A stretch of 33,226 nucleotides of DNA. It comes from Bacteroidota bacterium. Its GTDB lineage: Bacteria > Bacteroidota > Bacteroidia > Chitinophagales > UBA2359. Below the pieces are notes generated by a model. The model was not told the origin of the DNA. It did no database searches and saw only the letters and a program-made list of their open reading frames with translations. Below, in pieces: positions 3,013-29,751 of this stretch. The translations under genes and the position numbers were made by a program. The DNA lies in NCBI GenBank assembly GCA_020629895.1, contig JAHDCM010000001.1, forward strand, positions 5,217-38,442. The letters run 5' to 3'. The first letter of the stretch is position 1; each line of letters opens with the position of its first letter.

Positions 3013-3034
3013 TAGTTGGGTGTACGCTCAATCT

Positions 3035-3202
3035 CTCAGGAATGATGAAAAAATAAATTTACAATTATTTGGGTAGATTATTTTTGTTCCTGGCAAGGCA
3101 GAAAACGTAGCCATAGCCAAAGCTACGGCGAGGCTTTCTAACACAGCTAGGGACAAAAAGAAGCAGTCAAAATTGTAAATTTATTTCGTCTTCATTCCTC
3201 AG
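3035..3202 (+). repeat. Family-A structured repeat, copy A1 (long imperfect hairpin with conserved asymmetric apex)
   Basis: Outer arms ctcaggaatgatgaaaaaataaatttacaatt (3035-3066) and aattgtaaatttatttcgtcttcattcctcag (3171-3202) pair at 27 of 32 positions. Inner stem 3081-3094 pairs with 3146-3159. The apex carries GGCGAGGCTTTCTAAC (3127-3142), shared with copies at 26502-26736 and 29590-29751. Starts 23 nt after the sdhB stop. Confidence 0.8.
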
Positions 3203-3225: not shown

Positions 3226-3438
3226 TGGGCGTGTCCCCATTTTGTTGAAAAAGATGCCGCCAGCGTCTCGCTGGTAGCATCTTTTTCAACAAAATGGGGT
3301 CGGGCTATCCGCTTGTAGTTGCCTCGTAGAAAAGGTGTTTGGCTATTTTTGCTGGCAGTGTCTTCCTTCGTCAGCCCTGCCAGCAAAAGCCGCTCTACCT
3401 TTCTACTTCACCAAGCTACCGCTACTATCCCTCACGCA
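3226..3438 (-). repeat. Family-B structured repeat, copy B1 (candidate ncRNA or MITE-like element)
   Basis: The reverse complement aligns block-for-block with 7001-7218, 21920-22162(rc) and 29405-29558. Shared blocks: GCGTGAGGGATAGTAGYGGTAGCTTG ... stem-GGCTGACGAAGGAAGACA-stem ... CAACTACAARCGRATAGCCCGAC ... variable hairpin ... CACGCCC. The 12-bp stem 3347-3358/3377-3388 encloses the invariant loop (3359-3376). A near-perfect 65-nt hairpin lies at 3235-3299. Confidence 0.85.
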
Positions 3439-6976: not shown

Positions 6977-7000
6977 ATCGTGAATCGTTCAAACGTTTTC

Positions 7001-7218
7001 GCGTGAGGGATAGTAGTGGTAGCTTGATGAAGTAGAAATATAACTGAGGCTTCCCTTAGCAGGGCTGACGAAGGAAGACACTGCTAGGGGATGTAGCCGA
7101 ATATATTTTCTACGAAGCAACTACAAACGAATAGCCCGACGTGTATAAAAAAAGCGCAATCATAGCGGCAACAAAATACTGCCACTATGATTGCGCTTTT
7201 TTTATACACGGCACGCCC
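7001..7218 (+). repeat. Family-B structured repeat, copy B2
   Basis: Same blocks as B1. Terminal pairing GCGTG (7001-7005) with CACGC (7212-7216). Invariant loop at 7063-7080. The variable slot holds an unrelated 30-bp hairpin, 7141-7170 pairing with 7180-7209, with one C.A mismatch. Confidence 0.85.
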
Positions 7219-21738: not shown

Positions 21739-21789
21739 AATGAACTCCTACAAGCTTTATCTGTTATACTTATAGAAATTAATAAAACG

Positions 21790-21824
21790 AAGTTTCCCTG
21801 TCTGAAAATGACAAGGGAAACTTT
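21790..21824 (+). terminator. strong hairpin after secY (probable terminator)
   Basis: aagtttccctgtc / gacaagggaaactt, 13 bp with one bulged A and loop tgaaaat. The downstream tract TGTTGTG is only moderately T-rich. Confidence 0.5.
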
Positions 21825-21919
21825 GTTGTGTAAGTACTTGAGATGATCGCTTACTAATTCATACCATCACTCAACAACCAATAATCCTATCACCCCATCA
21901 TCAAGTAGTCATTATAAAC

Positions 21920-22162
21920 TGGGCGTGTCCTTCCATAGCTCTTTCGGGAACTGGAGAAATCTGTACAGACGCAAATCTTGCGTCTCTACCGAATCCTCCA
22001 GTCCCTCAATCCCTATTTCAGGTCGGGCTATCCGCTTGTAGTTGTCTCGTAGAAAAGGTGTTCGGCTAAAAGTCCTAGCAGTGTCTTCCTTCGTCAGCCC
22101 TGCTAGTCCAAGCCTCACGAACCTGTCTACTTCGCCAAGCTACCGCTACTATCCCTCACGCA
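21920..22162 (-). repeat. Family-B structured repeat, copy B3
   Basis: The reverse complement carries all family-B blocks. Loop at 22082-22099, flanked by the 7-bp stem ctagcag/ctgctag. The variable slot holds a ~93-nt branched hairpin unrelated to those in the other copies. Confidence 0.85.
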
Positions 22163-23939: not shown

Positions 23940-23964
23940 TTACCTTTATTGAATTTGTTGGATA

Positions 23965-24046
23965 AGTAAAGATGAAAAAATAGATTGATTAAGTATTGTC
24001 AACAAAGAGATAGCTAGATTGATCAATTTGTTCTCTCCTCTTTATT
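23965..24046 (+). repeat. degenerate or truncated Family-A element (A4, arms only, apex missing)
   Basis: Left arm agtaaagatgaaaaaatagattgattaagtattg closely matches the A3 left arm (29590-). Right arm cagctagattgatcaatttgttctctcctctttatt matches the A3 right arm (..gcagctagattgggcaatttattctttcctctttact). The GGCGAGGCTTT apex is absent. Confidence 0.55.
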
Positions 24047-26497: not shown

Positions 26498-26501
26498 TCC
26501 T

Positions 26502-26736
26502 CCTAGGAATGATAATTAAATAACGTTACAATTTTTTGGATAGATTATTTTTGTGCCTAATGAGGTATAAACGAGCGATAAAATGCAATAGCATTTTTGA
26601 ATGTCCAGTGGACATTCAAGCGTAGTGAACCGCTTGCGGATGTCTAGCTGCAGCGTATCGGCGAGGCTTTCTAACAAAATTAGGTGCAAAAAGAAGCAGT
26701 CAAAAATGTAAAGTTATTTAACCTTTGTTCTCTAAC
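26502..26736 (+). repeat. Family-A structured repeat, copy A2 (carries an extra ~85-nt multi-hairpin insertion in the apex)
   Basis: Starts 5 nt after the rpoA stop. Shares TAGATTATTTTTGT and ACAAAAAGAAGCAGTCAAAA-type segments and the apex GGCGAGGCTTTCTAAC (26660-26675) with A1. Inner stem 26548-26561 pairs with 26679-26692. Extra perfect hairpins at 26580-26597 and 26598-26618. Confidence 0.8.
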
Positions 26737-29404: not shown

Positions 29405-29558
29405 GCGCAAGGGATAGTAGTGGTAGCTTGACGAAATAGCTGCTTTTGTGAAGCAAAAACTAGCGGGGCTGACGAAGGAAGACACCGCTAGGATTATGCT
29501 GAACTAGCAGCTATGAGACAACTACAAACGGATAGCCCGACCCAACGGGTTGCGCCCC
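29405..29558 (+). repeat. Family-B structured repeat, copy B4 (minimal version)
   Basis: Carries all conserved blocks and the invariant loop (29467-29484). Terminal pairing is changed to GCGCAA (29405-29410) with TTGCGC (29550-29555), the second helix to ATAGCTGC/GCAGCTAT, and the loop-closing stem to CTAGCGG/CCGCTAG. The variable hairpin slot is almost empty. Confidence 0.85.
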
Positions 29559-29589
29559 AAAATAAATTTAAATGCATTGGCATTTTATT

Positions 29590-29751
29590 AGTAAAGATGA
29601 AAAAATAAATTGATCAAATATTGCTAGACTATTTGCTAATAAGACAAGGCGAAAAACGTAGGCATAGCCGTAGGCTCTGGCGAGGCTTTTCAACGTAGTA
29701 TTGTTAGCAAAAAGGCAGCTAGATTGGGCAATTTATTCTTTCCTCTTTACT
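29590..29751 (+). repeat. Family-A structured repeat, copy A3
   Basis: Arms agtaaagatgaaaaaataaattgatc... / ...aatttattctttcctctttact. Inner stem 29632-29642 pairs with 29701-29711 with one U.G. Apex AAACGTAGGCATAGCC...GGCGAGGCTTTTCAAC (29679-29694). Confidence 0.8.

What the first reader, a model, noticed from the sequence alone, without database searches (positions are those of the whole stretch)
3226..3438. Family B: an unrecognised structured repeat with an invariant 18-nt purine-rich loop (4 copies in 33 kb; definition and copy B1)
**Copies and alignment.** Four intergenic segments align block-for-block once two are reverse-complemented: 3226-3438(-), 7001-7218(+), 21920-22162(-) and 29405-29558(+).

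**Invariant or near-invariant blocks** (read in the 7001 orientation):
- GCGTGAGGGATAGTAG[C/T]GGTAGCTTG
- a hairpin whose 18-nt loop GGCTGACGAAGGAAGACA is identical in 4 of 4 copies
- CAACTACAA[G/A]CG[G/A]ATAGCCCGAC
- a 3' CACGCCC

**Between the blocks, sequence varies but pairing is kept.**
- The loop-closing stem is TTTTGCTGGCAG/CTGCCAGCAAAA (B1), CCCTTAGCAG/CTGCTAGGGG (B2), CTAGCAG/CTGCTAG (B3) and CTAGCGG/CCGCTAG (B4). B4 shows a double compensatory change.
- The next helix out is GTAGAAAGG/CCTTTTCTAC (B1), GTAGAAATATA/TATATTTTCTAC (B2) and ATAGCTGC/GCAGCTAT (B4).
- The terminal helix is GCGTG/CACGC in three copies and GCGCAA/TTGCGC in B4.
- A slot after CCCGAC holds hairpins of entirely unrelated sequence, roughly 65, 69, 93 and 10 nt long.

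**Interpretation.** Conserved unpaired sequence plus covarying helices is the signature of a structured nucleic acid under selection, not a decaying duplication. I do not recognise it as any Rfam-type family or IS end. There are no obvious terminal inverted repeats beyond 5 nt and no target-site duplications.
Basis: seen in the sequence. Interest (0 to 1): 0.72.

Follow-up and report, generated by a model that had tools for sequence, protein, structure and literature searches.

The report
Enlarged Flavo-1 RNA-motif repeat copies
The four "Family B" segments are real, structured, multi-copy elements, but they belong to the known Flavo-1 RNA motif of Bacteroidota, whose function is unknown; this is an enlarged form that the Rfam model scores below its threshold.

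Summary
Four copies sit at 3227-3437(-), 7001-7218(+), 21921-22161(-) and 29405-29557(+). All four share the exact 18-mer GGCTGACGAAGGAAGACA.

Thirty-eight full copies (4 from the window, 34 from a related metagenome-assembled genome, MAG-72) support a Y-shaped fold. 96.9% of cells are paired, and 28 of 44 pairs show compensatory changes.

The element is not an unknown family. A profile built only from 16 published Flavo-1 (RF01705) seed sequences finds exactly these four copies, at E = 7e-11 to 2e-8. Flavobacterium seeds carry the same end blocks and the same CUGACGAAGGAAG apical sequence. Rfam's own model scores only 16.5-17.7 bits against a cut-off of 42, because 70-100 nt lie in its apical slot.

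I also found that a 5-bp closing helix, a 3' hairpin and a CCA-like tail are general to this Flavo-1 type.

The element behaves like a spreading repeat:
- at least about 40 copies in the sampled part of one related genome;
- either orientation relative to genes;
- no linked ORF;
- differences between syntenic genomes;
- two loci with 100% identical cores;
- cores and hairpins that reassort independently.

How it spreads and what it does are inferred, not shown. It is a new member of a known kind, of moderate interest.

The parts
3226..3438 (-). Copy B1, whole element. Read 5'->3' on the minus strand from 3437 (GCGTG...) to 3227 (...CACGCCC).
   Evidence: Flavo-1 seed profile E = 6.5e-11; Rfam Flavo-1 16.5 bits, minus strand
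3433..3437 (-). B1 closing helix P1, 5' strand, GCGTG
   Evidence: Pairs with 3229-3233. Across 38 copies it covaries as GCGTG/CACGC, GCGCA/TGCGC and GCGTA/TACGC.
3229..3233 (-). B1 closing helix P1, 3' strand, CACGC. It is followed by CCA at 3228-3226.
   Evidence: tail C 36/36, C 34/36, A 31/36
3411..3431 (-). B1 Flavo-1 shell, 5' strand, GGGATAGTAGCGGTAGCTTGG
   Evidence: Matches the published Flavo-1 seeds. Its pairs GGG/CCC, UA/UA and GC/GC (C-G to U-A in 15 of 38 copies) enclose purine-rich internal loops.
3299..3321 (-). B1 Flavo-1 shell, 3' strand, CAACTACAAGCGGATAGCCCGAC
3322..3410 (-). B1 apical extension: helix GTAGAAAGG/CCTTTTCTAC, helix GGCT/AGCC, and stem TTTTGCTGGCAG/CTGCCAGCAAAA. 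This is the stretch that sits in the short apical slot of the Rfam model.
   Evidence: Helices 6 and 7: 17 of 21 pairs have compensatory changes. Searches show about 100 nt skipped by the Rfam model.
3359..3376 (-). B1 apical loop, GGCTGACGAAGGAAGACA
   Evidence: The core CUGACGAAGGAAG is shared with Flavobacterium Flavo-1 seeds and with divergent Bacteroidota copies.
3235..3298 (-). B1 variable 3' hairpin, in the slot between CCCGAC and the P1 3' strand
   Evidence: pair I8: 31-nt arms, 94% complementary. One search shows that hairpin types reassort independently of cores.
7001..7218 (+). Copy B2: P1 7001-7005 / 7212-7216, loop 7063-7080, hairpin 7141-7211. Lies between ribE and rpsL, sense to both.
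   Evidence: E = 1.2e-8
21921..22161 (-). Copy B3: P1 22157-22161 / 21923-21927, loop 22082-22099. Lies between secY and map, antisense to both.
   Evidence: E = 5.5e-10. MAG-72 holds a copy of a different subtype at the same site.
29405..29557 (+). Copy B4, the minimal version: P1 GCGCAA 29405-29410 / TTGCGC 29550-29555, loop 29467-29484, and a 9-nt slot. Lies between nusA and infB, sense to both.
   Evidence: E = 2.4e-8. Absent from the same spacer in MAG-72.

Best explanation
**What it is.** Family B is a Chitinophagales subfamily of the Flavo-1 RNA motif (RF01705). Flavo-1 is a non-coding element of Bacteroidota that is present in many copies per genome. Its function has never been established.

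**Shown here.**
- On the strand read GCGTG...CACGCCC, each copy folds into a Y shape with three parts.
  - A 5-bp closing helix.
  - A long arm: the Flavo-1 shell (short helices separated by nearly two-fold symmetric, purine-rich G-A internal loops), extended by about 90 nt of covarying helices and capped by the conserved loop.
  - A 3' hairpin of 9 to about 100 nt, followed by a CCA and A-rich tail.
- The element is a dispersed repeat.
  - Roughly 40 copies lie in the sampled part of one related genome.
  - Copies lie in either orientation relative to genes.
  - No ORF is linked to them.
  - Occupancy differs between syntenic genomes.
  - Two loci carry identical cores.
  - Cores and hairpins reassort independently.

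**Inferred.**
- It spreads as a non-autonomous element, or by recombination between copies.
- Selection acts on one folded single strand, either RNA or single-stranded DNA.
- The symmetric G-A loops and the conserved apical loop are recognition surfaces for a factor encoded elsewhere in the genome, probably a dimeric protein.

**My confidence by step.**
- Identity as Flavo-1: about 0.9.
- Spreading repeat rather than a classical regulatory small RNA (sRNA) gene: about 0.6.
- The specific recognition mechanism: low.
For: **Identity.**
- The profile built from published Flavo-1 seeds hits only the four copies, at E = 6.5e-11 to 2.4e-8.
- The seed alignment shows the same blocks.
- Seeds printed with their flanks show the same hairpin followed by CACGCCC, with GCGUU/AACGC covariation.
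- Divergent relatives score 28-36 bits on RF01705.
- The host is a Chitinophagales bacterium of the phylum Bacteroidota.

**Structure.**
- G-U 30 against A-C 8 in the core, and 62 against 10 in the hairpins.

**Repeat behaviour.**
- Orientation relative to flanking genes: 10 antisense to both, 8 sense to both, 7 and 2 mixed.
- No recurrent neighbouring ORF and no transposase in 238 kb around the copies.
- B4 is absent from the nusA-infB spacer of MAG-72, whose NusA is 96% identical.
- The sites of B2 and B3 are occupied there by other subtypes.
- A third syntenic genome has no copy in 40 kb.
- L006 and L038 cores are 100% identical but their hairpins only 58%. Core and hairpin identities correlate at r = 0.11.
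- Compact copies also occur in 19 places on viral contigs.
- A transcriptome study of F. psychrophilum found Flavo-1 hits sense or antisense to transcribed regions, and many outside them (PMC9723704).
Against: - Rfam's own model does not reach its threshold on any window copy.
- No transposase, reverse transcriptase or other partner was found.
- There is no target-site duplication, and the terminal inverted repeat is only 5 bp. The mechanism of spread is therefore unsupported.
- No exact empty site could be aligned, because the spacers have diverged too far. Loss cannot be separated from gain.
- No expression data are available.
- G-U and A-C counts are cells, not independent events.
- Different subtypes at one orthologous site could reflect gene conversion rather than transposition.
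Confidence: 0.7

Rival explanations
1. A family of independently transcribed, trans-acting small RNA (sRNA) genes. This is how Rfam labels Flavo-1 ('Gene; sRNA'). The conserved purine-rich loop would act as a seed or as a protein-titrating site, by analogy with the multicopy FopS sRNAs of Bacteroides.
For: - The fold is strand-specific and has conserved unpaired sequence.
- The loop core is conserved from Flavobacterium to Chitinophagales and Bacteroidales.
- Some divergent copies are followed by terminator-like hairpins.
- Multicopy sRNA families do exist in this phylum (PMC11697453).
Against: - There is no Bacteroidota promoter consensus (TAnnTTTG) at a fixed distance upstream. Upstream flanks are unrelated repeat modules.
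- No U-tract follows the element. The tail is A-rich.
- Roughly 40 copies were sampled from one genome, including copies inside operon spacers and in both orientations.
- Many Flavo-1 hits in F. psychrophilum lie outside transcribed regions.
- FopS has a different architecture, a single-stranded 5' seed plus a terminator.
Confidence: 0.15
2. A cis-acting element of the flanking mRNAs, such as a terminator, a processing site, a stabiliser or a leader.
For: - The copies are intergenic and often close to a gene end.
- The long 3' hairpins look terminator-like, with A- and T-tracts at their bases.
- On viral contigs, copies fill tight spacers between co-directional genes, with a strong orientation bias.
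Against: - In host genomes the orientation relative to both neighbours is close to random (10 antisense to both, 8 sense to both).
- No gene family recurs next to the copies.
- In neither orientation does a U-run follow the hairpin.
- In the viral spacers it is the complement of the better-folding strand that would be transcribed with the genes.
Confidence: 0.08
3. [quoted passage not shown]
For: Size of 150-250 bp, intergenic location, high copy number, presence/absence differences between genomes, and assembly breaks at the copies.
Against: - The terminal inverted repeat is only 5 bp, and there is no target-site duplication for any tested boundary offset or length.
- Compensatory changes run through internal helices, and G-U outnumbers A-C. 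A purely double-stranded recognition site would not produce either.
- No transposase was found in 238 kb.
Confidence: 0.05
4. Simple local duplications that are decaying, with the apparent structure arising by chance.
For: None beyond the four copies lying in one 33-kb window.
Against: - Dozens of copies lie on other contigs of related genomes.
- Homologues occur in Flavobacterium, Bacteroidales and viral contigs.
- Covariation is far above both controls.
Confidence: 0.01

Closest known systems
Flavo-1 RNA motif (Rfam RF01705; Weinberg et al. 2010, Genome Biol 11:R31)
   Same: - Same 5' block (GCGUGAGGGAU[A/U]G.AG.GG).
- Same 3' block (A.CGGA[U/A]AGCCCGACC).
- Same shell pairing with symmetric purine loops.
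- Same CUGACGAAGGAAG apical sequence as the Flavobacterium members.
- Same phylum, many copies per genome, either orientation, function unknown.
   Different: - The apical domain is 70-100 nt longer than in the 76-position Rfam consensus, so the model scores 16.5-17.7 bits against a cut-off of 42.
- The 3' hairpin reaches about 100 nt.
- The closing helix, the 3' hairpin and the CCA tail are present in the published flanks, but they are not part of the 76-position Rfam consensus as printed.
REP/BIME and REPIN elements (repetitive extragenic palindromes, mobilised by RAYT, the REP-associated tyrosine transposases)
   Same: High-copy intergenic palindromic repeats, found in either orientation, with no target-site duplication. 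They are thought to act as a folded single strand and often form mosaics with other repeats.
   Different: REPs are about 35 nt, with a GTAG motif and one imperfect hairpin. This element is a 150-250 nt multi-helix structure with conserved loops. No RAYT gene was seen, and whole genomes could not be searched.
IS200/IS605-type miniature derivatives and their omega-RNA / HEARO relatives
   Same: No inverted terminal repeats, no target duplication, strand-specific folded ends, and many orphan structured copies.
   Different: - No TnpA, TnpB or IscB gene was found near any copy.
- No Rfam hit to HEARO or the IS605-orfB motifs.
- The left flank is only loosely conserved (TTTY in about 60% of copies).
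- There is no variable guide-like segment.
Retron non-coding RNA (msr-msd)
   Same: The architecture is alike. Terminal inverted repeats close the RNA, a conserved structured 5' part follows, and a long hairpin of variable sequence sits just before the 3' repeat.
   Different: Retrons are single-copy and lie next to their reverse transcriptase gene. Here there are dozens of copies and no reverse transcriptase nearby. This is a resemblance recalled from general knowledge, not a tested homology.
FopS multicopy sRNAs of Bacteroides (PMC11697453)
   Same: A multicopy non-coding RNA family in Bacteroidota, also found on a phage.
   Different: FopS is a single-stranded 5' seed plus a terminator hairpin, with its own promoters and 12-15 copies per genome. 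It shares neither sequence nor structure with this element.

Membership tests
Flavo-1 RNA motif (RF01705) | Score at or above Rfam's gathering cut-off (42 bits) | tested here: not met
   No hit at the gathering threshold. B1 scores 16.5 bits and B4 17.7 bits. The model skips about 100 nt in its apical slot. Divergent relatives score 28.2-36.2 bits.
Flavo-1 RNA motif (RF01705) | Sequence homology to published seed members over the whole motif | tested here: met
   An nhmmer profile built from 16 type I seeds of Weinberg 2010 hits exactly the four copies, over profile positions 3-83, at E = 6.5e-11, 5.5e-10, 1.2e-8 and 2.4e-8. Nothing else in the window matches at E <= 10.
Flavo-1 RNA motif (RF01705) | Shell secondary structure: three short helices separated by symmetric purine-rich internal loops | tested here: met
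   GGG/CCC, UA/UA and GC/GC pairs are kept. The C-G pair changes to U-A in 15 of 38 copies, and helices 2-4 are 96-100% paired. The cmscan alignments place these columns on the model's pairs.
Flavo-1 RNA motif (RF01705) | Bacteroidota host, many dispersed copies, no fixed gene association | tested here: met
   A protein with a CHU_C type IX secretion domain is encoded in the window, and the NusA relatives are Chitinophagales.
[quoted passage not shown] | Terminal inverted repeats of 10 bp or more, and a target-site duplication | tested here: not met
   Only the 5-bp GCGTG/CACGC repeat is present. No duplication of 2-6 bp exceeds chance at any boundary offset.
IS200/IS605-type miniature element | A fixed tetra- or pentanucleotide 5' of the left end, and a cognate Y1 transposase in the genome | tested here: inconclusive
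   The left flank is TTTY in about 60% of copies, which is not strict. No multicopy transposase-like ORF was found in 238 kb. Whole genomes were not searchable.
Retron ncRNA | An adjacent reverse transcriptase gene; a single locus | tested here: not met
   No recurrent ORF lies next to the copies, and there are dozens of copies.
Omega-RNA / HEARO (IscB, IsrB, TnpB guide RNAs) | A match to the RNA family model, and an adjacent nuclease gene in at least some copies | tested here: not met
   No Rfam hit at either threshold, and no associated ORF.
tRNA-like element | A cloverleaf detectable by a tRNA finder | tested here: not met
   ARAGORN finds nothing in the window. Only the CCA after the closing helix resembles a tRNA 3' end.

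The most novel reading that the evidence does not exclude
Flavo-1 elements, including Family B, may be a so far undescribed kind of non-autonomous bacterial mobile element. The unit of recognition and propagation would be a folded single strand: a Y-shaped RNA or single-stranded DNA with a tRNA-like closing helix plus CCA tail, and a retron-like variable hairpin. It would be copied or inserted by an enzyme encoded elsewhere in the genome, such as a reverse transcriptase or an HUH-type nuclease. That would explain several observations together:
- structure conservation without a linked gene;
- identical cores at different loci;
- reassortment of modules;
- presence on viral contigs;
- the lack of terminal repeats and of target duplications.
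Probability: 0.12. Interest if true: 0.8.

Novelty: new member of a known kind. Interest (0 to 1): 0.38.

Why it matters
Flavo-1 is among the most abundant sRNA families in Rfam (PMC9029176). No function has been given for it in the papers found here.

This window and its relatives add four things:
- The published model is truncated. It lacks the closing helix, the 3' hairpin and the CCA-like tail.
- The model misses enlarged members, so the family's range is underestimated.
- In Chitinophagales the family behaves like a proliferating, recombining repeat rather than a regulated sRNA gene.
- Viral contigs carry compact copies with a marked orientation bias.

Together these turn "unknown sRNA" into specific, testable alternatives: a mobile structured element or a trans-acting RNA. 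For genome annotation, it explains assembly breaks and inflated spacers in these genomes.

Tried and rejected
- **Rfam searches of the window.** At the gathering threshold and at E <= 10, only chance miRNA-like hits on the perfect hairpins came up.
- **Plasmid BLAST.** No match.
- **tRNA/tmRNA scan.** Nothing found.
- **FopS sRNAs of Bacteroides as a possible identity.** Rejected, because the architecture is different.
- **A linked protein.** There is no recurrent ORF within 600 nt of the copies. No multicopy protein occurs in 238 kb of flanks.
- **Target-site duplications.** None for lengths of 2-6 bp at any boundary offset.
- **Bacteroidota promoter consensus upstream.** None at a fixed distance.
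- **Whether the slot hairpins are independent mobile palindromes.** Outside Family B copies they give only two hits, one of 56 nt and one of 26 nt. That idea is not supported.
- **Exact empty site for B4.** The spacers have diverged too far to define boundaries.
- **Strains closer to the window genome.** An exact rpsL look-up found nothing. The window's own NusA sits only on 1.46-kb contigs that end just outside the gene.
- **Minimum-free-energy comparison of the two strands of the compact viral copies.** Uninformative: 33 G-U pairs forward against 27 reverse, with inconsistent folds.
- **Literature search for a described Flavobacterium MITE or REP element matching this one.** Nothing relevant.
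- **The 14-base loop pattern on viral contigs.** It gave mostly chance hits, and none matched the Family B profile.

Full report
**1. Observation**

The four segments are as described. The refined limits are:
- B1: 3227-3437 (-)
- B2: 7001-7218 (+)
- B3: 21921-22161 (-)
- B4: 29405-29557 (+)

The 18-mer GGCTGACGAAGGAAGACA occurs exactly four times. It has no further match with up to 3 mismatches, and 0.03 matches are expected by chance. All four copies are intergenic:
- B1 lies between sdhB and a gene for a CHU_C type IX secretion protein, antisense to both.
- B2 lies between ribE and rpsL, sense.
- B3 lies between secY and map, antisense.
- B4 lies between nusA and infB, sense.

**2. More copies and structure**

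It returned dozens of copies on contigs of one metagenome-assembled genome, MAG-72 (JAHDHP01). It also returned divergent versions in two other Bacteroidota MAGs and one Bacteroidales MAG. A profile search of these loci found about 47 copies.

Thirty-eight full-length copies were aligned.
- RNAalifold gives 46 pairs, 28 of them with compensatory changes.
- For a curated 44-pair structure, 96.9% of cells pair, against 85.2% in shuffles.
- 28 pairs carry double changes, against 16 in shuffles.
- No shuffle out of 500 reaches the observed values, and slid controls pair at 28-44%.

The fold is Y-shaped and has three parts.
- A 5-bp closing helix. It is GCGUG/CACGC in most copies, GCGCA/UGCGC in six and GCGUA/UACGC in one.
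- A long arm.
- A 3' hairpin of 9-103 nt.

G-U pairs outnumber A-C mismatches 30 to 8 in the core and 62 to 10 in the hairpins. The strand read GCGTG...CACGCCC is therefore the one under structural selection. This fits RNA or one strand of DNA. It does not fit a purely double-stranded site.

**3. Identity**

Rfam gives no hit on the window at its curated thresholds. At E <= 10 it gives no hit on the core. On the divergent relatives, however, Flavo-1 (RF01705) appears at 28-36 bits. On short stretches of the window it is the only sensible match, at 17.7 bits for B4 and 16.5 bits for B1. It aligns the outer blocks and skips about 100 nt in its apical slot.

The published Flavo-1 seed alignment (Weinberg et al. 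2010, PMC2864571, supplementary file 151) contains members such as GCGUGAGGGAUAGAAGUGGAAAGCCCGCAGCCUGACGAAGGAAGUGCGAGGACUUGUAACGGAUAGCCCGACC from Flavobacterium johnsoniae. It has the same 5' block, the same 3' block and the same loop core.

A profile built only from 16 such published sequences finds exactly the four window copies over its whole length, at E = 6.5e-11 to 2.4e-8, and nothing else. I therefore file Family B under Flavo-1, although the Rfam threshold itself is not met.

The published sequences printed with their flanks also show a short hairpin after CCCGAC, followed by CACGCCC. One case covaries as GCGUU/AACGC. All 19 compact copies on viral contigs show the same. So the closing helix, the 3' hairpin and the tail belong to this Flavo-1 type in general. 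They are absent from the 76-position consensus that cmscan prints.

The tail is C 36/36, C 34/36, A 31/36, then A-rich.

The shell is nearly two-fold symmetric. Both strands carry GAU.G.AGCGGA.A-like sequence, and they pair through G-A-rich 3x3 loops. I read this directly from the sequences.

**4. Behaviour in genomes**

The window comes from a Chitinophagales bacterium. Two syntenic genomes were recovered:
- MAG-72, whose NusA is 96% identical;
- GCA_020628015.1, whose NusA is 83% identical.

Site by site:
- **B4 site.** B4 is missing from the nusA-infB spacer of MAG-72, which is 180 nt against 520 nt in the window.
- **secY-map site.** It is occupied in both genomes, in the same orientation. 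The copies differ in shell subtype and in hairpin.
- **ribE-rpsL site.** In MAG-72 the copy has the same shell, closing helix and hairpin type. Its apical domain has diverged.
- **Third genome.** It has no copy in 40 kb of synteny.

Further observations:
- Orientation relative to flanking genes is close to random.
- No ORF family recurs next to the copies. No multicopy protein was found in 238 kb.
- There is no target-site duplication and no promoter consensus. The 5' flank is pyrimidine-rich.
- Two loci in MAG-72 have 100% identical 161-nt cores but unrelated hairpins.
- Overall, core and hairpin identities are uncoupled, at r = 0.11.
- The hairpin types are almost never found outside these elements.
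- Assemblies break at or near copies.

These are the marks of a repeat that proliferates and recombines.

**5. Viral contigs**

A shell pattern found 20 stretches on IMG/VR contigs, and 19 profile hits confirm compact Flavo-1 type I copies. They fill tight spacers between co-directional genes. In about 10 of 11 independent contexts they are antisense to those genes. Four related contigs keep one just after the same ORF, which I guess to be a terminase from its P-loop-like motif; it was not annotated. Host copies show no such bias. I cannot explain this. One possibility is that the sense orientation is harmful inside an operon.

**6. What it does**

The literature found here gives no function.
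- Weinberg et al. only note the taxonomic range.
- The F. psychrophilum transcriptome study found hits sense or antisense to transcribed regions, and many outside them.

My best reading is a non-autonomous, spreading, structured repeat, selected as one folded strand and recognised by a factor encoded elsewhere.
- Shown: identity, structure, strand asymmetry, and variation in copy number and occupancy.
- Inferred: mobility, the nature of the strand (RNA or DNA), and recognition by a protein.

The rivals are a trans-acting sRNA family, a cis-acting mRNA element, a classical MITE and chance. They are weighed in their own section of this report.

**7. Verdict**

What is new is limited to three things:
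- an enlarged, high-copy Chitinophagales subfamily that Rfam's model scores below its threshold;
- a fuller architecture for the family;
- evidence that it behaves as a spreading repeat.

Interest is moderate.

Noticed in passing
window 3033-3202 and 26500-26730; partial copies at 23962-23998 and 29587-29623: A second repeat family that looks like a true MITE. It is about 170 nt long, with 32-nt terminal inverted repeats (3035-3066 / 3171-3202, 88% complementary). A related copy lies in MAG-72 (L046:3348-3554, 88% identity). Copies lie 25-30 nt from the 3' ends of B1 and B4.
   Followed up: partly
window 21961-21989 (minus strand, inside B3's variable arm); L015, L040, L006, L038, L047, L019, L022: A small REP-like hairpin, GTAGAGACG...CGTCTGTACAG, recurs at different places. 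It sits in B3's 3' arm. It is inserted into helix P2 of seven MAG-72 copies, and it also occurs in the flanks of others.
   Followed up: partly
window about 21850-21905 and 6977-7000; many MAG-72 flanks: Tandem arrays of 8-nt units flank many copies: (GATTGNNT)n, often next to a GCGTAACGC mini-hairpin, and (AATCGTNN)n next to CCGTCGGACG. They occur on either side and in either orientation.
   Followed up: no
3' ends of all copies, e.g. window 3226-3228, 21920-21922, 29556-29559: The closing helix is followed directly by CCA (C 36/36, C 34/36, A 31/36) and an A-rich tract. Published Flavo-1 seeds and viral copies show the same. It resembles a tRNA 3' end, but no tRNA-like fold is detected.
   Followed up: partly
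L060-L079 (IMG/VR contigs): Compact Flavo-1 copies on viral contigs are antisense to the flanking co-directional genes in about 10 of 11 contexts. They fill the whole spacer, with the stop codon about 8 nt from one end and a start codon 3-20 nt from the other. L067 carries three copies in 9 kb.
   Followed up: partly
L058:3584-3790 (MAG-72, ribE-rpsL spacer): The copy at the site orthologous to B2 keeps the shell, the closing helix and the hairpin type. Its apical domain is strongly diverged, with the loop GGCTGAGCGGAATGAGCGAAGACA. It is barely detected by the Family B profile (E = 6.5e-4).
   Followed up: partly
L058:1-40; L056 and L057: The MAG-72 contig ends 40 nt upstream of the CHU_C gene, where the window has B1. 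The only other contigs carrying the window's exact NusA are 1.46 kb long and stop just outside the gene. These repeats appear to break short-read assemblies.
   Followed up: no
window about 21785-21825: A hairpin, GTTTCCCTGTCTGAAAATGACAAGGGAAAC, lies downstream of secY. It is conserved almost exactly in MAG-72 while the rest of the spacer differs. It is probably the operon terminator.
   Followed up: no
L013, L042, L051 (MAG-76); L020 (Bacteroidales MAG): The same 18-nt loop and the flanking UGARGC...GCYGAA helix occur on copies whose shell is of the other Flavo-1 type (UAGCC-CCGAUUG...AGCGGGA). The apical module therefore predates the split between the two shell types.
   Followed up: no
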